From NCBI GenBank assembly GCA_009914755.4, contig CP086569.2, positions 1,152,001-1,216,000 of the forward strand: a stretch of 64,000 nt of DNA. Reading direction: 5' to 3'. The translations under genes were made by a program, and so were the position numbers. The notes under the pieces were generated by a model, which ran no database searches, had not been told where the DNA came from, and saw nothing but the letters and a program-made list of their open reading frames with translations. The DNA is from the human T2T-CHM13v2.0 reference genome, Homo sapiens. This document shows positions 1-61,344 of the stretch, piece after piece. Each line of letters starts with the position of its first letter. Position 1 is the first letter of the stretch.

Positions 1-750
1 TGCTTTTTGGTTTCACGTTTTTGTGGTGTTTTGTGTTTTTGTGTTTTTGTTTTTTGTGTTTGTTTTTGTTTTGTTTTGTGTTTTGTTTTGTGTTTGTTTT
101 TGTTTTGTTTTGTGGTTTTTGTTTTGTGTTGTGTTTGTTTTTGTTTTGTTTTGTGTTTTTTTGTTTGTGTTTTGGTGTTTTTGTTTTGTGGTTTTCTTTT
201 GTGTTTGTTTTTGTTTTGTGTTTTTGTGTTTTTGTTTCATTTTGTTTTGTTTTGTGTTTTTGTGTTTTGTTTTGTTTTGTGTTTGTTTTTGTTTTGTTTT
301 GTGTTTTTGTGTTTTTGTTTTGTGTTTTGTGTTTTTGTGTTTTGTTTGTTTTGTGTTTTTGTGTTTTGTTTTTGTGTTTTGTTTTGTTTTGTGTTTTTGT
401 GTTTTGTTTTGTGTTTGTTTTTGTTTTGTTTTGTGTTTTTGTGTTTTTGTTTTGTGTTTTGTGTTTTGTTTTGTGTTTTTGTGTTTTGTTTTGTGTTTTT
501 GTTTTGTTTTGTGTTTTTGATTTGTGTTTTTGTGTTTTGTTTTGTGTTTGTTTTTGTTTTGTGTTTTGTGTTTTTATGTTTTGTTTTGTGTTTGTTTTCG
601 TTTTGTTTTGTGTTTTTGTTTTGTGTTTTGTGTTTTTGTGGTTTTTTTTTGTTTTGTGTTTTTGTTTTGTGTTTTTGTGTTTTGTGTTTTTGTGTTTTGT
701 TTTGTGTTTGTTTTTGTTTTGTTTTGTGTTTTTGTGTTTTGTTTTGTTTT
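1..750. repeat. GT-rich minisatellite/simple repeat (TTTTG/TGTG-type units), ends ~35 bp before the CSF2RA exon acceptor
   Basis: Uninterrupted gttttgtgtttttgtgttt... pattern. ORFs of only F/C/V/L codons on + and K/T/Q/N on - are repeat artefacts. Confidence 0.9.
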
Positions 751-3960: not shown

Positions 3961-4056
3961 CCCTGATCTCTCTTTCTTTTCCCTACACAGAGTAGACAAA
4001 GAGGTGTCCCTACTCCACATTTACCTGGACCCAGTGTAGACAGGAGGAGACCCTGC

Positions 4057-4131
4057 CCCACCTCCACCTGGACCCAGCGTAGACAAAGAGGTGTTTCTAC
4101 TCCATATCTACCTGGACCCAGTGTAGATGGG
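4057..4131 (+). ncRNA. MIR3690: miR-3690-like hairpin copy 1 inside the minisatellite HOR (candidate mature arm ACCTGGACCCAGCGTAGACAAAG at 4066-4088)
   Basis: ...CACCTCCACCTGGACCCAGCGTAGACAAAGAGGTGTTTCTACTCCATATCTACCTGGACCCAGTGTAGATGGGAGG. The 5' CCCA.CTCC can pair with 3' GTAGATGGG. The assignment rests on my recollection of the miRBase entry. The 5' flank differs by 1 nt (CAC vs CAT) from copies 2 and 3. Confidence 0.4.
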
Positions 4132-4359
4132 AGGAGACCCTGCCCCATCTCCACCTGGACCCAGTGTAGACAAAGAGGTGTCCCTAGTCCACATCCACCT
4201 GGACCGAGTGTAGACAGGAGGAGACCCTGCCCCACCTCCACCTGGACCCAGTGTAGACAGGAGAAGACTCTGCACCACCTCCACCTGGACCCAGTGTAGA
4301 CAGGAGGAGACCCTGCCCCACCTCCACCTGGACCCAGTGTAGACAGGAGAAGACTCTGC

Positions 4360-4434
4360 CCCATCTCCACCTGGACCCAGCGTAGACAAAGAGGTGTTTC
4401 TACTCCATATCTACCTGGACCCAGTGTAGATGGG
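4360..4434 (+). ncRNA. MIR3690: miR-3690-like hairpin copy 2 (candidate mature arm at 4369-4391)
   Basis: CCCATCTCCACCTGGACCCAGCGTAGACAAAGAGGTGTTTCTACTCCATATCTACCTGGACCCAGTGTAGATGGG. Matches my recollection of the hsa-mir-3690 precursor and of mature miR-3690 ACCUGGACCCAGCGUAGACAAAG. Confidence 0.5.
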
Positions 4435-4662
4435 AGGAGACCCTGCCCCATCTCCACCTGGACCCAGTGTAGACAAAGAGGTGTCCCTAGTCCACATCCA
4501 CCTGGACCGAGTGTAGACAGGAGGAGACCCTGCCCCACCTCCACCTGGACCCAGTGTAGACAGGAGAAGACTCTGCACCACCTCCACCTAGACCCAGTGT
4601 AGACAGGAGGAGACCCTGCCCCACCTCCACCTGGACCCAGTGTAGACAGGAGAAGACTCTGC

Positions 4663-4737
4663 CCCATCTCCACCTGGACCCAGCGTAGACAAAGAGGTGT
4701 TTCTACTCCATATCTACCTGGACCCAGTGTAGATGGG
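4663..4737 (+). ncRNA. MIR3690: miR-3690-like hairpin copy 3 (candidate mature arm at 4672-4694)
   Basis: Identical to copy 2 and lies one HOR period (303 bp) downstream. Confidence 0.5.
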
Positions 4738-5028
4738 AGGAGACCCTGCCCCACCTCCACCTGGACCCAGTGTAGACAGGAGAAGACTCTGCACCACCTC
4801 CACCTGGACCGAGTGTAGACAGGAGGAGACACTGCCCCACCTCTACCTGGACCCAGTGTAGACAGGAGGAGACCCTGCCCCATCTCCACCTGGACCCAGT
4901 GTAGTCAAAGAGGTGTCCCTACTCCACCTCCACCTGGACCCAGTGTAGACAGGACCTACTCCACCTCCACCTGGACCCAGTGTAGACAGGAGGAGACTCT
5001 GCACCACCTCCACCTGGACCCAGTGTAG

Positions 5029-5319
<291 letters not shown>

Positions 5320-5489: not shown

Positions 5490-5930
5490 AGGAGAGCCTC
5501 TGCTCCACCTCCAGCTGGACGCAGTGTAGACAGAAGGAGACCCTGCCCCATGTCTACCTGGACCCAGTGTAGATAGGAGGACACCCGACCCCACCTCCAC
5601 CTACACCCAGTGTAGACAGGAGGAGACCCTGCTCCACCTCCATGGAGACCCAGTGTAGACAGGAGGAGCTCTTGTCCCACAACTACCTGGACCCAGTGTA
5701 GACAGGGAGAGAGACTGCCTCACGTCCACCTCGATCCAGTGTAGACAAGAGGAGATCTTGTCTCACAACCTCCTGGACCCAGTGTAGACAAGAAGAGACC
5801 CTGCCCCATGTCCACCTCGAGCCAGTGTAGACAAGAGGAGATCTTGTCCCACAACCACCTGGACCCAGTGTAGACAAGAAGGAGAGCCTGCTCCATGTCT
5901 ACCTGGACGACAGGAGAACACCCTGCCCCA
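5490..5930. repeat. Minisatellite family A block 3 (more diverged units)
   Basis: Repeated ...CCACCTCCA(G/C)CTGGAC(G/C)CAGTGTAGACAG(A/G)AGGAGACCCTGCCCCA... units. Several short ORFs on both strands are artefacts. Confidence 0.85.
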
Positions 5931-6203: not shown

Positions 6204-6224
6204 GTAAGTGAAACCACAGACCCT

Positions 6225-7364
6225 ACTGACAACCCTCAGCGTAACCCTACGGTCCCCTACTCACCACACCTAATGTAACTCTACAGTCCCCTACTCATGA
6301 CCCCTACAGTCCCCTACCGACGACCTCCAGCGTAACCCTACAGTCCCCTACTCACCACACCTAGTGTAACTCTACAGTCCCCTACTCACGACCCCTACAG
6401 TCCCCTACTGACGACCTCCAGCGTAACCCTACGGTCCCCTACTCACCACACCTAGTGTAAGGAGGAGGAGACCCTGCCCCACCTCCACAGAGACCCAGTA
6501 TAGACAGGAGGAGCTCTTGTCCCACAACCACCTGGACCCCGTGTAGACAGGAAGAGAACCTGCCCCACGTCCACCTAGTTTAACCCTACAGTCCCCTACT
6601 CACCACACCTAATGTAACTCTACAGTCCCCTACTCATGACCCCTACAGTCCCCTACCGACAACCTCCAGCGTAACCCTACAGTCCCCTACTCACCACACC
6701 TAGTGTAACTCTACAGTCCCCTACTCACGACCCCTACAGTCCCCTACTGACGACCTCCAGCGTAACCCTACGGTCCCCTACTCACCACACCTAGTGTAAG
6801 GAGGAGGAGACCCTGCCCCACCTCCACAGAGACCCAGTATAGACAGGAGGAGCTCTTGTCCCACAACCACCTGGACCCCGTGTAGACAGGAAGAGACCCT
6901 GCCCCACGTCCACCTAGTTTAATCCTACAGTCCCCTACTCACCACACCTAATGTAACTCTACAGTCCCCTACTCATGACCCCTACAGTCCCCTACCGACG
7001 ACCTCCAGCGTAACCCTACAGTCCCCTACTCACCACACCTAGTGTAACTCTACAGTCCCCTACTCACGACCCCCGGAGTAATCCTACAGTCTCCTACTCA
7101 CGACGCCTACAGTTCCCTATTCATGACCACTAGCGTAACCATACAGTCCCCTACCCATGAGCCCTGGCATAACCCTACAATCCCCTACTCACCACACCTA
7201 GCATAAACCTACAGTCCCCTACCCATGACCCCTGGAGTAACCCTACAGTCCCCTAGTCACTACACCTAGTGTAACTAACCATACAGTTCCCTATCCATGA
7301 CCTCTGGCGGAACCCTACACTCCCCTACTCACAACCCCTAGTGTAACCCTACAGTCTCCTACCC
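6225..7364. repeat. Composite higher-order repeat (~335-340 bp period) interleaving family-B units (CTACAGTCCCCTACTCA...) with family-A units (GTAGACAGGAGGAG...)
   Basis: The block ...ctacagtcccctactcatgacccctacagtcccctaccgacgacctccagcgtaaccc... recurs at ~6283, ~6628 and ~6963. Each copy ends with two family-A units. Confidence 0.85.
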
Positions 7365-10300
7365 ATGACCCCTGGCGGAACTGTACAGTCCCCTACTCAC
7401 GACCCCTACACTCTCCTACCCATGACCCCTGGCGGAACCCTACAGTCCCCTACTCACGACCCGTACAGTCTCCTACCCATGACCCCTGGCAGAACCCTAC
7501 AGTCCCCTACTCACGACCCCTACACTCTCCTACCCATGACCCCTGGCGGAACCCTACAGTCCCCTACTCACGACCCCTACAGTCTCCTACCCATGACCCC
7601 TGGAGGAACCCTACAGTCCCCTACTCACGACCCCTACACTCTCCTACCCAAGACCCCTGGCGGAACCCTACAGTCCCCTACTCACGACCCGTACAGTCTC
7701 CTACCCATGACCCCTGGCGGAACCCTACAGTCCCCTACTCACGACCCCTACACTCTCCTACCCATGACCCCTGGCGGAACCGTACAGTCCCCTACTCACG
7801 ACCCCTACAGTCTCCTACCCATGACCCCTGGCGGAACCGTACAGTCCCCTACTCACGACCCCTACACTCTCCTACCCATGACCCCTGGCGGAACCGTACA
7901 GTCCCCTACTCACGACCCCTACAGTCTCCTACCCATGACCCCTGGCGGAACCGTACAGTCCCCTACTCACGACCCCTACAGTCTCCTACCCATGACCCCT
8001 GGCAGAACCCTACAGTCCCCTACTCACGACCCCTACACTCTCCTACCCATGACCCCTGGCGGAACCGTACAGTCCCCTACTCACGACCCCTACAGTCTCC
8101 TACCCATGACCCCTGGCGGAACCGTACAGTCCCCTACTCACGACCCCTACAGTCTCCTACCCATGACCCCTGGCGGAACCCTACAGTCCCCTACTCACGA
8201 CCCCTACAGTCTCCTACCCATGACCCCTGGCGGAACCCTACAGTCCCCTACTCACGACCCCTACAGTCTCCTACCCATGACCCCTGGCGGAACTGTACAG
8301 TCCCCTACTCACGACCCCTACAGTCTCCTACCCATGACCCCTGGCGGAACCCTACAGTCCCCTACTCACGACCCGTACAGTCTCCTACCCATGACCCCTG
8401 GCGGAACCCTACAGTCCCCTACTCACGACCCCTACAGTCTCCTACCCATGACCCCTGGCAGAACCCTACAGTCCCCTACTCACGACCCCTACAGTCTCCT
8501 ACCCATGACCCCTGGCAGAACCCTACAGTCCCCTACTCACGACCCCTACAGTCTCCTACCCATGACCCCTGGCGGAACCCTACAGTCCCCTACTCACGAC
8601 CCCTACAGTCTCCTACCCATGACCCGTGGCGGAACCCTACAGTCCCCTACTCACGACCCCTACAGTCTCCTACCCATGACCCCTGGTGGAACCGTACAGT
8701 CCCCTACTCACGACCCCTACAGTCTCCTACCCATGACCCCTGGCGGAACCGTACAGTCCCCTACTCACGACCCCTACAGTCTCCTACCCATGACCCCTGG
8801 CGGAACCCTACAGTCCCCTACTCACGACCCCTACACTCTCCTACCCATGACCCCTGGCAGAACCCTACAGTCCCCTACTCACGACCCCTACAGTCTCCTA
8901 CCCATGACCCCTGGTGGAACCGTACAGTCCCCTACTCACGACCCCTACAGTCTCCTACCCATGACCCCTGGCGGAACCGTACAGTCCCCTACTCACGACC
9001 CCTACAGTCTCCTACCCATGACCCCTGGCGGAACCCTACAGTCCCCTACTCACGACCCCTACACTCTCCTACCCATGACCCCTGGCAGAACCCTACAGTC
9101 CCCTACTCACGACCCCTACAGTCTCCTACCCATGACCCCTGGCGGAACCCTACAGTCCCCTACTCACGACCCCTACAGTCCCCTACCCATGACCCCTGGA
9201 GTAACCCTACAGTCCCCTACTCACGACCCCTACAGTCTCCTACCCATGACCCCTGGTGGAACCCTACAGTCCCCTACTCACGACCCCTACACTCTCCTAC
9301 CCATGACCCCTGGCGGAACCCTACAGTCCCCTACTCACGACCCCTACACTCTCCTACCCATGACCCCTGGCGGAACCCTACAGTCCCCTATTCACGACCC
9401 CTACAGTCTCCTACCCATGACCCGTGGCGGAACTGTACAGTCCCCTACTCACGACCCCTACAGTCTCCTACCCATGACCCCTGGCGGAACCCTACAGTCC
9501 CCTACTCACGACCCCTACAGTCTCCTACCCATGACCCCTGGCAGAACCGTACAGTCCCCTACTCACGACCCCTACACTCTCCTACCCATGACCCCTGGCG
9601 GAACCGTACAGTCCCCTACTCACGACCCCTACACTCTCCTACCCATGACCCGTGGCGGAACCCTACAGTCCCCTACTCACGACCCCTACAGTCTCCTACC
9701 CATGACCCCTGGCAGAACCCTACAGTCCCCTACTCACGACCCCTACAGTCCCCTACCCATGACCCCTGGAGTAACCCTACAGTCCCCTACTCACGACCCC
9801 TACAGTCTCCTACCCATGACCCCTGGCAGAACCCTACAGTCCCCTACTCACGACCCCTACAGTCTCCTACCCATGACCCCTGGCAGAACCGTACAGTCCC
9901 CTACTCACGACCCCTACAGTCTCCTACCCATGACCCCTGGTGGAACCCTACAGTCCCCTACTCACGACCCCTACAGTCTCCTACCCATGACCCCTGGCGG
10001 AACCCTACAGTCCCCTACTCACGACCCCTACAGTCTCCTACCCATGACCCCTGGCGGAACCATACAGTCCCCTACTCACGACCCCTACACTCTCCTACCC
10101 ATGACCCCTGGCAGAACCCTACAGTCCCCTACTCACGACCCCTACACTCTCCTACCCATGACCCGTGGCGGAACTGTACAGTCCCCTACTCACGACCCCT
10201 ACAGTCTCCTACCCATGACCCCTGGCAGAACCCTACAGTCCCGTACTCACGACCCCTACAGTCCCCTTCCCATGACCCCTGGCGGAACCCTACAGTCCCC

Positions 10301-10540
10301 TACTCACGACGCCTACACTCTCCTACCCATGACCCCTGGCGGAACCCTACAGTCCCCTACTCACGACCCCTACAGTCTCCTACCCATGACCCCTACAGTC
10401 CCCTACTCACAACCCCTACAGTCTCCTACCCATGACCCCTGGCGGAACCCTACAGTCCCCTACTCACGACCCCTACAGTCTCCTACTCATGACCCCTGGA
10501 GTAACCCTACAGTCCCCTATTCAGGAGCCGTAGTGTGACC
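7365..10540. repeat. 57-bp VNTR, ~55 highly homogeneous copies (unit ACCCCTGGCGGAACCCTACAGTCCCCTACTCACGACCCCTACAGTCTCCTACCCATG)
   Basis: The 19-aa periodic translation MTPGGT(L/V)QSPTHDPY(S/T)LLP repeats through the whole 1057-aa ORF. The unit length is a multiple of 3 and has no stop codon in that frame. Variants are single-base G/C, C/G and A/G changes. Confidence 0.95.
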
Positions 10541-10880
10541 CTACAATCCCCTACTCACAACCCCCGGTGGAACCCTACAGTCCCCTACCCATGACCTCTG
10601 GTGGAACCCTACAGTCCCCTACTCACGACCCCTAGTGTAACCCCACGTGTAACCCTATAGTCCCCTACCCACGACCTATGTCTGCCTAGACCCAGTGTGA
10701 TCAGGAGGAGACCCCACCTCACCTCCCCCTAGACCCAGTGTAGACAAGAAGGAGAGCCTGCCCCACGTCTACCTGGATCCAGTGTAGACAGGAGAATACT
10801 CTGCCCGACATACAGTTGAACCACTCACAACCCTAGCGTCACCCTACAGTCTCCACGAACCCTACAGTCTTGGTTTATGG
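10541..10880. repeat. Degenerate tail of the family B and family A minisatellites
   Basis: Diverged CCCTACAGTCCCCTAC units followed by CCAGTGTAGACAAGAAGGAGAGCCTGCCCCACGTCTACCTGGA. Confidence 0.8.
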
Positions 10881-11322: not shown

Positions 11323-12743
<1,421 letters not shown>

Positions 12744-21187: not shown

Positions 21188-21809
<622 letters not shown>

Positions 21810-36232: not shown

Positions 36233-36357
36233 AGGCCAGGAGGGGTGATTCACGCCTGTAATCCCAGCACTTTGGGAGGTAGAGGCTGGAGGATCACTTG
36301 AGGTCAGGAGTTAGAGGCCAGCCTGGGCCACATAGCAAGATCCTGTCTCTAAGAAAA

Positions 36358-36660
36358 AGGAAGGAAGGAAGGAAGGAAAAAGAGAAAGGAAAGAAAGAGA
36401 AAGAAAGAAGGAAGGAAGGAAAAAGGAAAAGAAAGGAAAGAAAAAGAAAGAAGAGAGAGAGAAAAAAGAAAGAAAAAGAAAGAGAAAGGGCAAGCAAGCA
36501 AGCAGGGAGGGAGGGAGGGGAGGGAAGGAGGAGGGAAAGAAGGAAGGGAGGGAGGGAGGGAGGAAGGGAAAGAAAGGAAAGAAAAGAAGGAAGGAAGGAA
36601 AGAAAGAAAGAGAAAGAGAGAAAGAAAAGCAAGAAAGGAAAGAAAGAAAAAAGAAAAAGG
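36358..36660. repeat. (GGAA)n/(GAAA)n polypurine microsatellite
   Basis: aaggaaggaaggaaggaaaaagagaaaggaaagaaagagaaagaaagaaggaagg... The K/E/R-rich + ORF and the F/L/S-rich - ORFs are artefacts. Confidence 0.95.
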
Positions 36661-37104: not shown

Positions 37105-38397
<1,293 letters not shown>

Positions 38398-47786: not shown

Positions 47787-49113
<1,327 letters not shown>

Positions 49114-49469
49114 TAATAAGATCTGTCATCTGAGACCGGGGGCCACCTCCCTGTCTGGGTGCTGTTTCCCACGAGACAGGGAGGAAACACAGGCAGGAGC
49201 CCCTGGACACCAGCGTTCACGCCTCCAAGGCTGAATTTACTATGTCAGGAAGTTGCCCAACCCTGCCTGTATAGCCAGCAAGAATTCTAATTATAGCAAA
49301 CAGAAACACTTGCAGAAAAAAAAAAAAATGAGAACGGGAACATGATAATTTTCAAAGAAAGAGTCTTTCTTTCAAGGAAAGTCAGGTTCATGGTTACGAA
49401 GCTGCTGACCCCAGGATCCCAGCCCGTGGGAGAGAAGGGGGTCTCTGACAGCCCCCACCCCTCCCCACT

Positions 49470-49551
49470 GCCAGATCCTTATTGGGTCTGAGTTTCAGGG
49501 GTGGGGCCCCAGCTGGAGGTTATAAAACAGCTCAATCGGGGAGTACAACCT
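49470..49551 (+). promoter_or_regulatory. IL3RA: Candidate IL3RA core promoter: inverted CCAAT (ATTGG ~49480), GC box (GGGGTGGGGCC ~49497-49508) and TATA box TATAAAA at 49521-49527
   Basis: ccagatccttATTGGgtctgagtttcaGGGGTGGGGCCccagctggaggtTATAAAAcagctcaatcggggagtacaacc. The predicted TSS is ~25-30 nt downstream of the TATA, and a strong splice donor lies 140 nt further on. Confidence 0.55.
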
Positions 49552-49691
49552 TCGGTTTCTCTTCGGGGAAAGCTGCTTTCAGCGCACACGGGAAGATATC
49601 AGAAACATCCTAGGATCAGGACACCCCAGATCTTCTCAACTGGAACCACGAAGGCTGTTTCTTCCACACAGTACTTTGATCTCCATTTAAG
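49552..49691 (+). other. IL3RA: Candidate IL3RA non-coding exon 1 (5' UTR). The TSS is approximate
   Basis: Unique sequence with no ATG-initiated ORF of the IL3RA frame, ending in the consensus donor TTTAAG|gtaaggtccc at 49691/49692. The position, ~27.8 kb downstream of the CSF2RA stop, fits the expected intergenic spacing. Confidence 0.5.
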
Positions 49692-50229
49692 GTAAGGTCC
49701 CCCCTCCAGGGTGGGATGAGGGAAAAAGAGGGCAGGCAGGGGAGGCGGTGGACTGTGGGTTCCCAAATCCAAGCTGGCAGACACGGGGCATTGGCATGTA
49801 ACAGGTTTCTGCTGAGACCTGCTGTCCGTGTGGGCACCACACCACACATAGAATGACCCGGTACCAGAGAAGTATGTTTGCGATCTCATTCACCCTTTTG
49901 TAAGTGGATCGGACGCTGAAGCCATCATAGCATGTTAGATGCCTTGGGTTTATAAAGGTGATAGCATTAGGAGTAATTTGACAGTGCTTTCTGCTTTTTC
50001 TGTGTGCTTGCTAGAAAATGTACACACCTACACATGGCTAGAGTTCTCTGTTTATTAGAAAGCGCTGGTTCAGTTAGTCAATGAGCTCACGCCCAGGGCG
50101 AGCTGACTGCCAGCCGGGGAGCCGCTTTTGGGGCTGGGACCCCAGCCTGCTTGTAGTGTTTCTCAGTGGTTTTCAAAGGCTGGCGGGACTCAGAATGTTC
50201 CAGATGGCTGGTGAAACCTCAGGTCCCTC

Positions 50230-51345
50230 CTAGCAGCTTTATTCACAGTAGCCAAGAGGTGGAGACAGCCCTCGTACCCATCTATAGATGAATGGAAAAA
50301 TATAATGTCCATCCACACAGTGGAATATTACGCAGCCATGAAAAGGAACAAGCAGCTTTATTCACAATAGCCAAGAGGTGGAGACAGCCCTCATACCCAT
50401 CTATAGACGAATGGATAAATATAATGTGGTCCAGCCACACGGTGGAATATTACACAGCCATGAAAAGGAACAAGCAGCTTTATTCACAATAGCCAAGAGG
50501 TGGAGACAGCCCTCATACCCATCTATAGACGAATGGATAAATATAATGTGGTCCAGCCACACAGTGGAATATTACACAGCCATGAAAAGGAACAAGCAGC
50601 TTTATTCACAATAGCCAAGAGGTGGAGACAGCCCTCATACCCATCTATAGATGAATGGAGAAATATAATGTGGTCCAGCCACACAGTGGAATATTATACA
50701 GCCATGAAAAGGAACAAGCAGCTTTATTCACAATAGCCAAGAGGTGGAGACAGCCCTCGTACCCATCTATAGATGAATGGAGAAATATAATGTGGTCCAG
50801 ACACACAGTGGAATATTATACAGCCATGAAAAGGAACAAGCAGCTTTATTCACAATAGCCAAGAGGTGGAGACAGCCCTCATACCCCCATCTATAGATGA
50901 AGGGAGAAATATAATGTCCATCCACACAGTGGAATATTACACAGCCATGAAAAGGAACAAGCAGCTTTATTCACAATAGCCAAGAGGTGGAGACAGCCCT
51001 CATACCCATCTATAGATGAATGGAAAAATATAATGTCCATCCACACAGTGGAATATTACACAGCCATGAAAAGGAACAAGCAGCTTTATTCACAATAGCC
51101 AAGAGGTGGAGACAGCCCTCATACCCCATCTATAGATGAATGGAGAAATATAATGTGGTCCAGCCACACGGTGGAATATTACACAGCCATGAAAAGGAAT
51201 AAGCAGCTTTATTCACACTAGCCAAGAGGTGGAGAGAGTCCTCATACCCATCTATAGATGAATGGAGAAATATAATGTGGTCCAGCCACACGGTGGAATA
51301 TTACACAGCCATGAAAAGGAACGAGGCTCTGCCACAGGTGGCAAT
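50230..51345 (+). repeat. 122-bp tandem array (~9 copies) derived from the 3' coding end of an old L1 ORF2 (sense orientation)
   Basis: Unit AGCAGCTTTATTCACAATAGCCAAGAGGTGGAGACAGCCCTCATACCCATCTATAGACGAATGGATAAATATAATGTGGTCCAGCCACACGGTGGAATATTACACAGCCATGAAAAGGAACA. Its translation ...AALFTIAKRWRQPSYPSIDEWINIMWSSHTVEYYTAMKRNKQ... parallels L1 ORF2p ...AALFTIAKTWNQPKCPTMIDWIKKMWHIYTMEYYAAIKNDEF... Copies start at ~50292, 50414, 50536, 50658, 50780, 50905, 51027, 51150 and 51272. Confidence 0.9.
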
Positions 51346-51558
51346 GTGGGTGAATGCTGAGGACATCATGCTTCCTGAGAGAGGCCAGATACAAAAAGAT
51401 ACATAGTGTCTGTATGATTCCATTTATTCCCTATGTCCAGATACAGGCAAATCCACAGAGACAGAAAGTGGATGAGTGGTTGCCACAGGCTGGGGAAGAG
51501 GAAGGACGGGTCTTTAATGGGTCTGGAGTCTCCTTTTGGGGTCGTGACAATGTTCTAG

Positions 51559-51929
<371 letters not shown>

Positions 51930-52277
51930 TAAGAGCACAGATTTCCCAACGTTCTGACTCAGGCATCTTCCTGGACCACAGCCCCTACAGGCAAGTGTGA
52001 CTGTGTGTGGTGAGCCCATGAGCTGAACACAGGCTCTGTCCGAAAGGAGACTCTAGAGATTGCCTGTTGCCTTGGAGGTGGGCTGCGGTCCCTCTGCCCA
52101 GGCAGGAAGGGGCTCCGAGGCCTCTGGAACCTCATTTTACCTTTTCCCTGCTGCCCTCAGTCCCGTCCCCAGCCTCAAGGGGCTCAGCTTTTTCCAGGCT
52201 CACCCCTTCCATTTATAATTTGGAGACAAGCAAGGTCCACTGACGCTAACGCCATTTGGTTCTTTAAAAGATGTTAG

Positions 52278-53460
<1,183 letters not shown>

Positions 53461-53467
53461 ACAAACA

Positions 53468-54077
<610 letters not shown>

Positions 54078-54078
<1 letters not shown>

Positions 54079-54360
54079 GAAAACACACAAACACTTATGT
54101 GTGCACACAGATACACACGGGCACAAAAATGTACACACATGTGCAAGCACACACACACAGACACATGTACACAGTACCCGTGTGTGCACAGGCATGCATG
54201 CAGTCCTGCAAATGTGCAAACAGACATGGCTACATAGAGGCATGCACACATATAGACCCATGTACACACACACGAATATTCGTGCACACATGTAGAAGCA
54301 CACTCTGACTTCTACATGCGCAAAGGCGCATTTGCACACAGACACATATGCACACTCACC
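54078..54360. repeat. Second cryptic CA/CATG-rich simple repeat, ending ~130 bp upstream of IL3RA exon 2
   Basis: cacacaaacacttatgtgtgcacacagatacacacgggcacaaaaatgtacacacatgtgcaagcacacacacacagacacatgtacacag... Confidence 0.85.
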
Positions 54361-54527
54361 ACCGCTTTCCCTCCAGAAGCAGCTCCTTCTGCTGTGAGCA
54401 CCAGGCTCTGGAAGGGGCAAGCGTCCTTCATTACCCGCAACCCAGTTTCACAGCCAGTCCCCGCTGCCTGACTCTCGTTTCTCCTCCAGCAGGCACCTCT
54501 GTCCTGCGTTCCGGAGCTGCGTTCCCG

Positions 54528-54591
54528 ATGGTCCTCCTTTGGCTCACGCTGCTCCTGATCGCCCTGCCCTGTCTCCTGCAAACGAAGGAAG
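54528..54591 (+). CDS. IL3RA: IL3RA first coding exon (exon 2; the exon itself probably begins ~54489): MVLLWLTLLLIALPCLLQTKE(D), the signal peptide
   Basis: Candidate acceptor tcgtttctcctccag|CAGGCACC, ATG at 54528, donor AAGGAAG|gtaagaac. Exact match to the recalled IL-3 receptor alpha N-terminus. Confidence 0.92.
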
Positions 54592-58081: not shown

Positions 58082-58555
<474 letters not shown>

Positions 58556-61199: not shown

Positions 61200-61314
61200 G
61201 CAGTGAACAATAGCTATTGCCAGTTTGGAGCAATTTCCTTATGTGAAGTGACCAACTACACCGTCCGAGTGGCCAACCCACCATTCTCCACGTGGATCCT
61301 CTTCCCTGAGAACA
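61200..61314 (+). CDS. IL3RA: IL3RA coding exon 4: AVNNSYCQFGAISLCEVTNYTVRVANPPFSTWILFPEN(S)
   Basis: Acceptor ctatgtctctcttag|GCAGTGAAC and donor GAGAACA|gtgagaaaaatg. The exon ends in phase 1, so the downstream exon must begin GT or GC to complete Ser-Gly. Exact match to recalled IL3RA ...YSMPAVNNSYCQFGAISLCEVTNYTVRVANPPFSTWILFPENSGKPW... Confidence 0.9.
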
Positions 61315-61344
61315 GTGAGAAAAATGTTCATTGTTTGTTTATTC

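What the first reader, a model, noticed from the sequence alone, without database searches (positions are those of the whole stretch)
49470..49693. Candidate IL3RA promoter and non-coding first exon
In otherwise unique sequence ~27.8 kb downstream of the CSF2RA stop there is, in order: an inverted CCAAT (ATTGG), a GC box (GGGGTGGGGCC), a consensus TATAAAA (49521-49527), ~140 nt with no in-frame ATG relevant to IL3RA, and a strong donor TTTAAG|GTAAGGTCCC at 49691/49692. The first IL3RA coding exon (ATG at 54528) begins at an acceptor ~4.8 kb further on and carries 39 nt of 5' UTR. This fits a TATA-driven, myeloid-type promoter with a 5'-UTR exon. The spacing to CSF2RA is what I expect for PAR1.
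Basis: partly seen in the sequence, partly recalled or inferred. Interest (0 to 1): 0.5.

Follow-up and report, generated by a model that had tools for sequence, protein, structure and literature searches.

The report
Known IL3RA promoter and first exon

Summary
These are ATTGG at 49481-85, GGGGTGGGGCC at 49498-508, TATAAAA at 49521-27 and the donor AAG|GTAAGG at 49691|49692. No ATG lies between the TATA box and the donor. The IL3RA ATG is at 54528, after a 4,798-nt intron. The CSF2RA stop codon (21720-22) is 27.8 kb upstream. The one slip is that exon 2 carries 38 nt of 5'UTR, not 39.

The arrangement is not chance. The donor ranks 2nd of 7,117 GT sites. This is the only one of 30 TATAAA sites in the window that also has CCAAT, a GC/GT box and a strong donor. 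Only 2.5% of shuffled windows give such a composite.

Published work fixes the interpretation. Six IL3RA promoter-luciferase primers (PMC10986138) all place +1 at window 49550. An Ensembl-based SNP survey (PMC7583315) lists a SNP inside this TATA box as lying in an IL3RA core promoter. The same survey implies a second, weaker start about 140-190 nt upstream (49363-49413), whose transcripts would contain these "promoter" motifs and a 33-codon uORF.

The promoter is not a CpG island and does not fit the "myeloid-type" (TATA-less, PU.1-driven) label. Verdict: real and correctly read, but already known, so low interest.

The parts
49316..49328 (+). A13 run, which is the '-234/-222 A-rich' ZNF384 / EP300-ZNF384 binding site of the IL3RA promoter
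   Evidence: The coordinates follow from the primer mapping (+1 = 49550). In PMC10986138, deleting or substituting this site abolished transactivation, and ChIP was positive.
49343..49379 (+). Upstream regulatory cluster. It holds TGATAA (GATA-like, 49343-48) and two STAT/GAS-like TTCNNNGAA sites (49351-59, 49371-79). It is also the weak TBP-site region of the upstream alternative start.
   Evidence: Motif scan. The SNPs at 49343-49362, listed as an IL3RA 70-bp core promoter with KD 18 nM, are. Factor binding is inferred and was not tested.
49363..49413 (+). Interval that must contain the upstream alternative IL3RA transcription start (the long 5'UTR form)
   Evidence: Inferred from PMC7583315. 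Its SNPs lie within 70 bp upstream of an Ensembl protein-coding transcript start. My unverified memory of older RefSeq/cDNA 5' ends (GTCAGGTTCATGG...) would put the start at about 49381.
49390..49491 (+). 33-codon upstream ORF (plus its TGA stop), present only in transcripts from the upstream start
   Evidence: ATG 49390 to TGA 49489-91. Whether it is translated is not known.
49453..49461 (+). CCCCACCCC (CACCC / Sp-KLF type box) at -97..-89
49481..49485 (+). Inverted CCAAT box (ATTGG) at -69..-65
   Evidence: The flanks fit the NF-Y consensus poorly (read from the sequence).
49498..49508 (+). GT/GC box GGGGTGGGGCC at -52..-42
   Evidence: It is unique in the window.
49510..49515 (+). E-box CAGCTG at -40..-35, between the GT box and the TATA box
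   Evidence: Binding by E-proteins such as TCF4 is speculation.
49521..49527 (+). TATA box TATAAAA at -29..-23
   Evidence: rs1458842073 at 49526 is listed as an IL3RA TBP-site SNP with predicted KD 3 nM.
49550..49691 (+). IL3RA exon 1: 142 nt, non-coding, no ATG. +1 is at 49550 according to published promoter numbering.
49689..49697 (+). 5' splice site AAG|GTAAGG (exon ends at 49691)
   Evidence: 11.2 of 12.6 bits, rank 2 of 7,117 GT sites in the window.
49692..54489 (+). Intron 1 (4,798 nt)
   Evidence: The acceptor has a pyrimidine-rich tract (82%) and a CAG|CAG tandem acceptor.
54490..54591 (+). IL3RA exon 2: 38 nt of 5'UTR, then ATG at 54528 and the signal peptide MVLLWLTLLLIALPCLLQTKE
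   Evidence: The exon's donor end at 54591 is confirmed by the spliced RNA contig L001.

Best explanation
Window 49316-49691 is the proximal promoter and non-coding exon 1 of human IL3RA (CD123) in pseudoautosomal region 1.

Proposed mechanism:
1. TBP/TFIID binds the consensus TATAAAA at 49521-27.
2. It is helped by factors on the GT/CACCC boxes, the inverted CCAAT box and more distal sites (the A13 ZNF384 site, GATA-like and GAS-like motifs).
3. RNA polymerase II starts about 29 nt downstream, at 49550.
4. The 142-nt exon 1 contains no AUG. Its near-consensus donor (49691|49692) is spliced across a 4.8-kb intron to the acceptor at 54489|54490.
5. The result is a 180-nt 5'UTR with no uAUG, and the first AUG (54528) opens the IL3RA reading frame.

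A second, weaker start about 140-190 nt upstream yields a longer 5'UTR that includes these motifs and a 33-codon uORF.

What is shown: the motif positions, the strength of the splice signals, the absence of uAUGs, the published +1 and the published reporter activity.

What is inferred: TBP and other factor occupancy, the relative use of the two starts, and the exon 1-exon 2 junction itself.
For: - Gene identity.
- Motifs.
- TATA box to +1 spacing of 29 nt, using the +1 fixed by six published primers.
- The -1293/+110 fragment drives luciferase, and the -234/-222 site is needed for ZNF384 and EP300-ZNF384 transactivation.
- The Ensembl-based core-promoter survey places the TATA-box SNP within 70 bp of an IL3RA protein-coding transcript start.
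- The donor ranks 2 of 7,117 GT sites, and the first ATG of the spliced 5'UTR is the IL3RA start at nucleotide 181.
- The composite is unique in the window and rare in shuffles.
- The region is a repeat-free island.
- It is not a CpG island (CpG observed/expected 0.31-0.40), as expected for a TATA-type, tissue-restricted promoter.
Against: - No transcript spanning exon 1 and exon 2 could be retrieved. The metagenome scan gave only two chance bacterial matches. The only IL3RA RNA contig in reach (L001) starts inside exon 2.
- PMC10986138 does not say where its +1 comes from.
- There is no good Inr motif at 49550, and +1 is a C preceded by a C (read from the sequence).
- An annotated upstream start exists, so part of the transcription reads through the 'promoter' motifs.
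- Conservation in other species could not be examined.
Confidence: 0.9

Rival explanations
1. The functional IL3RA start is the upstream one (about 49363-49413). On this view the CCAAT box, GT box and TATA box are simply part of a 280-330-nt exon 1 and do not position polymerase. The 49550 '+1' would be a truncated-cDNA artefact carried into annotation.
For: PMC7583315 lists four IL3RA core-promoter SNPs at 49343-49362, which implies an Ensembl protein-coding transcript start just downstream of them. My unverified memory is that the original cDNA and older RefSeq versions begin near 49381.
Against: - The predicted TBP affinity of the upstream site is 6 times weaker (18 nM against 3 nM).
- The 29-nt spacing from a perfect TATAAAA to the independently quoted +1 is what a TATA-directed start predicts.
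- The long form carries a uORF, which is unusual for a main mRNA form, though not excluded.
- Both starts can coexist.
Confidence: 0.08
2. A chance cluster of short promoter-like motifs beside a cryptic donor, with the true IL3RA first exon elsewhere or exon 2 serving as the first exon.
For: ATTGG and similar short motifs are common. TATAAA occurs 30 times in the window.
Against: - Two independent publications place the IL3RA promoter and TSS here.
- Exon 2 begins at a strong acceptor with a pyrimidine tract, so it needs an upstream donor.
- The composite is unique in the window and appears in only 2.5% of shuffles.
- The donor ranks 2nd of 7,117 GT sites.
Confidence: 0.02

Closest known systems
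Annotated human IL3RA (CD123) promoter and exon 1 (RefSeq/Ensembl; gene structure first described by Kosugi et al. 1995, BBRC 208:360, cited in PMC7690688; reporter analysis in PMC10986138)
   Same: It is the same locus. The published primer coordinates, the -234/-222 A-rich site and the TATA-box SNP all map onto the flagged sequence.
   Different: Nothing of substance differs. The Kosugi paper could not be read here, so its own description of the promoter was not compared.
TATA-box, non-CpG-island 'focused/sharp' RNA polymerase II promoters of tissue-restricted genes
   Same: Consensus TATAAAA at -29..-23, low CpG content (observed/expected 0.31-0.40), and upstream CCAAT and GT boxes in the usual -40..-100 zone.
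   Different: There is no recognisable Inr at the quoted +1. A second annotated start about 140-190 nt upstream means initiation is not strictly single-site.
Classical myeloid promoters, which from my own knowledge (not checked here) are TATA-less and PU.1/C-EBP-driven. An example is the paralogous neighbour CSF2RA.
   Same: Expression in myeloid and dendritic lineages, and a paralogous gene family in the adjacent genomic position.
   Different: This promoter has a strong TATA box and no PU.1/ETS consensus close to the start. The best ETS match, CAGGAAGT, lies at -303. The CSF2RA promoter is outside the window and was not compared.

Membership tests
IL3RA promoter / exon 1 (the annotated locus itself) | Lies upstream of the IL3RA start-codon exon, on the same strand | tested here: met
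   The IL3RA N-terminal exons at 54528-54591, 58082-58200 and 61200-61314 match PDB 'Interleukin-3 receptor subunit alpha' (E 9e-52). The candidate lies 4.8 kb upstream on the + strand.
IL3RA promoter / exon 1 (the annotated locus itself) | Published promoter coordinates and the annotated TSS coincide with the candidate | tested here: met
   Six reporter primers give +1 = 49550. The Ensembl-based 70-bp core promoter contains the TATA-box SNP at 49526.
IL3RA promoter / exon 1 (the annotated locus itself) | Transcripts join 49691 to 54490 | not testable with these tools
   No human transcript resource was available. The metagenome scan returned only chance bacterial hits. L001 starts inside exon 2.
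Non-coding 5'UTR exon | Consensus 5' splice site at its end, a matching acceptor before the ATG, and no upstream AUG | tested here: met
   The donor scores 11.2 of 12.6 bits, rank 2 of 7,117. The spliced 180-nt leader has its first ATG at nucleotide 181. The acceptor's pyrimidine fraction is 0.82.
TATA-box focused core promoter | TATAWAWR with its first T about 28-33 nt upstream of +1 | tested here: met
   TATAAAA lies at -29..-23 relative to the published +1.
TATA-box focused core promoter | Initiator (YYANWYY / BBCABW) at +1 | tested here: not met
   The sequence around 49550 is GTACAAC|CTTCGG, with no match that places an A at +1 (read directly). An Inr is common in this class but not obligatory.
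TATA-box focused core promoter | A single sharp experimental TSS peak (CAGE) | not testable with these tools
   No CAGE data were available. Annotation indicates at least two starts.
CpG-island promoter | GC above 55% and CpG observed/expected above 0.6 over at least 200-500 bp | tested here: not met
   CpG observed/expected is 0.31-0.40 and GC is 52-55% across 49300-49800.
Myeloid-type (TATA-less, PU.1-dependent) promoter | No TATA box, with a functional PU.1/ETS site close to the start | tested here: not met
   A consensus TATA box is present. The only ETS-like cores within -300..+142 are AGGAAA at -175 (overlapping a GAS-like site) and weak GGAA cores in the exon. CAGGAAGT lies at -303. Binding was not tested.

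The most novel reading that the evidence does not exclude
IL3RA may use two starts about 140-190 nt apart as a switch. The weak upstream start would make an mRNA whose leader holds a 33-codon uORF (49390-49491) and is translated poorly. The TATA-driven start at 49550 has an E-box immediately upstream (CAGCTG, -40..-35) that TCF4/E2-2 could use. It would make a uAUG-free, efficiently translated mRNA and so account for the very high CD123 levels on plasmacytoid dendritic cells, BPDCN and AML blasts.
Probability: 0.12. Interest if true: 0.35.

Novelty: already known. Interest (0 to 1): 0.08.

Why it matters
CD123 is a major diagnostic marker and drug target in AML, BPDCN and B-ALL, so its promoter is of practical interest. 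However, this promoter and first exon are already in the reference annotation and have been used in published reporter assays. The value of this check is mainly as quality control. It shows that the first-stage reader can locate a TATA-type promoter and a non-coding first exon from raw sequence to within 2 nt. It also records the second upstream start and its uORF as a small open question.

Tried and rejected
1. I tried to get direct transcript evidence for the exon 1-exon 2 junction.
- The protein database returned only two IL3RA fragments. One contig, L001, is a spliced IL3RA RNA, but it begins inside exon 2.

2. I tried to reach orthologous or other copies of the promoter through exact-ORF look-ups of three ORFs overlapping 49501-49889. 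None is on record, so conservation could not be assessed.

3. I checked whether the region is a structured RNA or a known RNA family. Rfam finds nothing at 49000-50300. The 190-nt stretch folded (the 180-nt spliced 5'UTR plus the first 10 nt of coding sequence) folds no better than shuffles (z = -0.21).

4. A CpG-island promoter is rejected. The only CpG-rich, GC-rich block between the two genes (37400-38253) is an (AGGGG)n simple repeat, not an obvious promoter.

5. Literature searches for primer-extension, CAGE or TATA-box studies of IL3RA found nothing further. Kosugi et al. 1995 is not held. PMC3511536 concerns the IL3 promoter, not IL3RA.

6. I did not run the bacterial promoter/terminator scan, because it is irrelevant to a human locus.

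Full report
**1. What the window is**

The window is human pseudoautosomal sequence. It holds the 3' half of CSF2RA and the 5' part of IL3RA.
- Exon-sized matches to the GM-CSF receptor alpha chain run from 784 to 21719 and end in a TGA at 21720-21722.
- Translation of 784-957 matches PDB chains named 'Granulocyte-macrophage colony-stimulating factor receptor subunit alpha' (E 2e-35).
- Three exons at 54528-54591, 58082-58200 and 61200-61314 splice into MVLLWLTLLLIALPCLLQTKEDPNPP.... This matches PDB 'Interleukin-3 receptor subunit alpha' (E 9e-52).

**2. The observation**

- ATTGG at 49481-85.
- GGGGTGGGGCC at 49498-508, the only copy in the window.
- TATAAAA at 49521-27.
- The donor TTTAAG|GTAAGGTCCC, with the exon ending at 49691.

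The only ATG between 49380 and 49700 is at 49390, upstream of the TATA box. The coding exon begins at ...tctcctccag|CAGGCACC (54489|54490) with the ATG at 54528. Intron 1 is therefore 4,798 nt, and the leader part of exon 2 is 38 nt. The distance from the CSF2RA stop is 27.75-27.8 kb. The stretch 49120-50231 is a repeat-free island between Alu-rich flanks.

**3. Is it more than chance?**

- A simple 5' splice-site weight matrix, built from approximate human frequencies that I recalled from memory, gives the donor 11.2 of a possible 12.6 bits. That ranks it 2nd of 7,117 GT dinucleotides on both strands, above the proven IL3RA exon 2, 3 and 4 donors.
- Among the 30 TATAAA sites in the window, only 49521 has both a CCAAT box and a GC/GT box upstream. 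It is also the only one followed by a strong donor within 80-350 nt.
- 2.5% of 200 dinucleotide-preserving shuffles contain at least one such composite. The composite was defined after seeing the site, so this figure is supportive rather than a formal probability.

**4. What it is, from published work**

*PMC10986138* (EP300-ZNF384 transactivates IL3RA) cloned 'the promoter of IL3RA (from -1293 to +110)' and a deletion series into pGL3.
- The primers in its Table S1 map to 48257 (-1293; one mismatch to the window, the other five are exact), 48573 (-977), 48904 (-646), 49219 (-331) and 49335 (-215). The reverse primer ends at 49659 (+110).
- All six give +1 = 49550.
- Their functional 'A-rich sequence at -234/-222' is the A13 run at 49316-49328.
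- With +1 at 49550 the TATA box sits at -29..-23, the GT box at -52..-42 and the inverted CCAAT box at -69..-65.
- Exon 1 is 49550-49691, or 142 nt.

*PMC7583315* analysed SNPs in the 70 bp in front of Ensembl GRCh38 protein-coding transcript starts. For IL3RA it lists two groups:
- rs1458842073, with flanks gaggttataa[a/g]acagctcaat, at window 49526 inside the TATA box. The predicted TBP KD is 3 nM.
- Four SNPs at 49343-49362, with a predicted KD of 18 nM.

The annotation therefore contains two starts:
- A start within 70 nt downstream of the TATA box.
- A second start somewhere in 49363-49413.

My own unverified recollection is that the original cDNA and older RefSeq versions begin at GTCAGGTTCATGG (about 49381), which would fit the second start.

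**5. How it most likely works**

- The promoter is not a CpG island (CpG observed/expected 0.31-0.40, GC 52-55%).
- It has a consensus TATA box at canonical spacing. This matches the class of TATA-directed promoters typical of tissue-restricted genes.
- TBP/TFIID binding at 49521-27 would place initiation near 49550.
- The GT/CACCC boxes (49498-508 and 49453-61), the inverted CCAAT box and the distal A13 ZNF384 site supply activation. The ZNF384 site is experimentally supported. The others are inferred from motifs.
- Other motif matches are an E-box CAGCTG at -40..-35, TGATAA at -207, two GAS-like TTCNNNGAA sites at -199 and -179, and an ETS consensus CAGGAAGT at -303. These are leads only.
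- Exon 1 has no ATG. After splicing, the 180-nt leader has its first ATG at nucleotide 181, the IL3RA start.
- The leader shows no unusual folding (z = -0.21), and no Rfam family matches there.
- Transcripts from the upstream start would also contain a 33-codon uORF (ATG 49390 to TGA 49489-91).

**6.

- 'Myeloid-type promoter' is not apt. From established knowledge, classical myeloid promoters are TATA-less and depend on PU.1 sites near the start. This one has a strong TATA box and no nearby PU.1 consensus.
- There is an annotated upstream start, so the listed motifs are transcribed in some mRNAs.
- There is no recognisable Inr at 49550.

**7. What could not be done**

- I could not obtain a transcript across the exon 1-exon 2 junction. 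The metagenome scan gave chance bacterial hits. The only IL3RA RNA contig, L001, starts inside exon 2.
- Three exact-ORF look-ups around exon 1 found nothing, so conservation in other species is untested.
- PMC10986138 does not state the source of its +1.
- The primary gene-structure paper, Kosugi et al. 1995 (cited in PMC7690688), is not held.

**8. Verdict**

This is the known, annotated IL3RA promoter and non-coding first exon. Novelty: already known. Interest is low. The only mildly open point is the relative use of the two starts and what the uORF in the long form does.

Noticed in passing
L001 1-704 (ENA ERZ1694935); window 54538-54591 joined to 61200-61315: A spliced human IL3RA RNA fragment in a public assembly joins exon 2 directly to exon 4, skipping the 119-nt exon 3. 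This shifts the frame and stops after 25 codons (MVLL...TKEGSEQ*). The contig then runs into unspliced intron after a later exon. It is probably a non-productive isoform.
   Followed up: partly
window 49390-49491: A 33-codon uORF (MVTKLLTPGSQPVGEKGVSDSPHPSPLPDPYWV*) would be present only in IL3RA mRNAs from the annotated upstream start. The TATA-driven form has no uAUG.
   Followed up: partly
window 54487-54492: The exon 2 acceptor is a tandem CAG|CAG (NAGNAG) site, so a 3-nt alternative acceptor within the 5'UTR is possible.
   Followed up: no
window 37400-38253 (and 36351-36656): A large (AGGGG)n-like array of about 167 copies lies in the CSF2RA-IL3RA intergenic region. It has 73% GC, CpG observed/expected near 1 and strong G skew. 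It is preceded by (AAGG)n/(GAAA)n tracts. The G-rich strand could form G-quadruplexes. It looks like a CpG island by composition but is a simple repeat.
   Followed up: partly
window 18-750, 2154-2730, 4023-5034, 5490-5908, 6221-10643: The CSF2RA introns are packed with minisatellites: (TGTTTT)n, 85-mer and 43-mer arrays, and a 57-mer repeated about 53 times with 96% matches (7347-10394). These explain the strong C-rich skew at 6-11 kb and are typical of PAR1.
   Followed up: partly
window 12143-12262 (-): A full-length 5S rRNA match scores exactly at Rfam's gathering threshold (38 bits, E 3e-4). It lies just upstream of a CSF2RA exon (12378-12515) and is probably a 5S pseudogene.
   Followed up: no
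window 48257-49116: The distal part of the published '-1293' IL3RA reporter fragment (-1293 to about -434) consists of tandem Alu-type repeats. The -646 primer also matches two other places in the window exactly.
   Followed up: no
L002 (JGI 3300032031), L003, L004 (ENA 'GS_farmland'): Environmental metagenome assemblies contain IL3RA intron/exon 3 DNA of human or primate type, at 98.5%, 100% and 94.5% identity to the window. This is host or contaminant DNA. The 94.5% contig may be a non-human primate or a divergent PAR1 haplotype.
   Followed up: no
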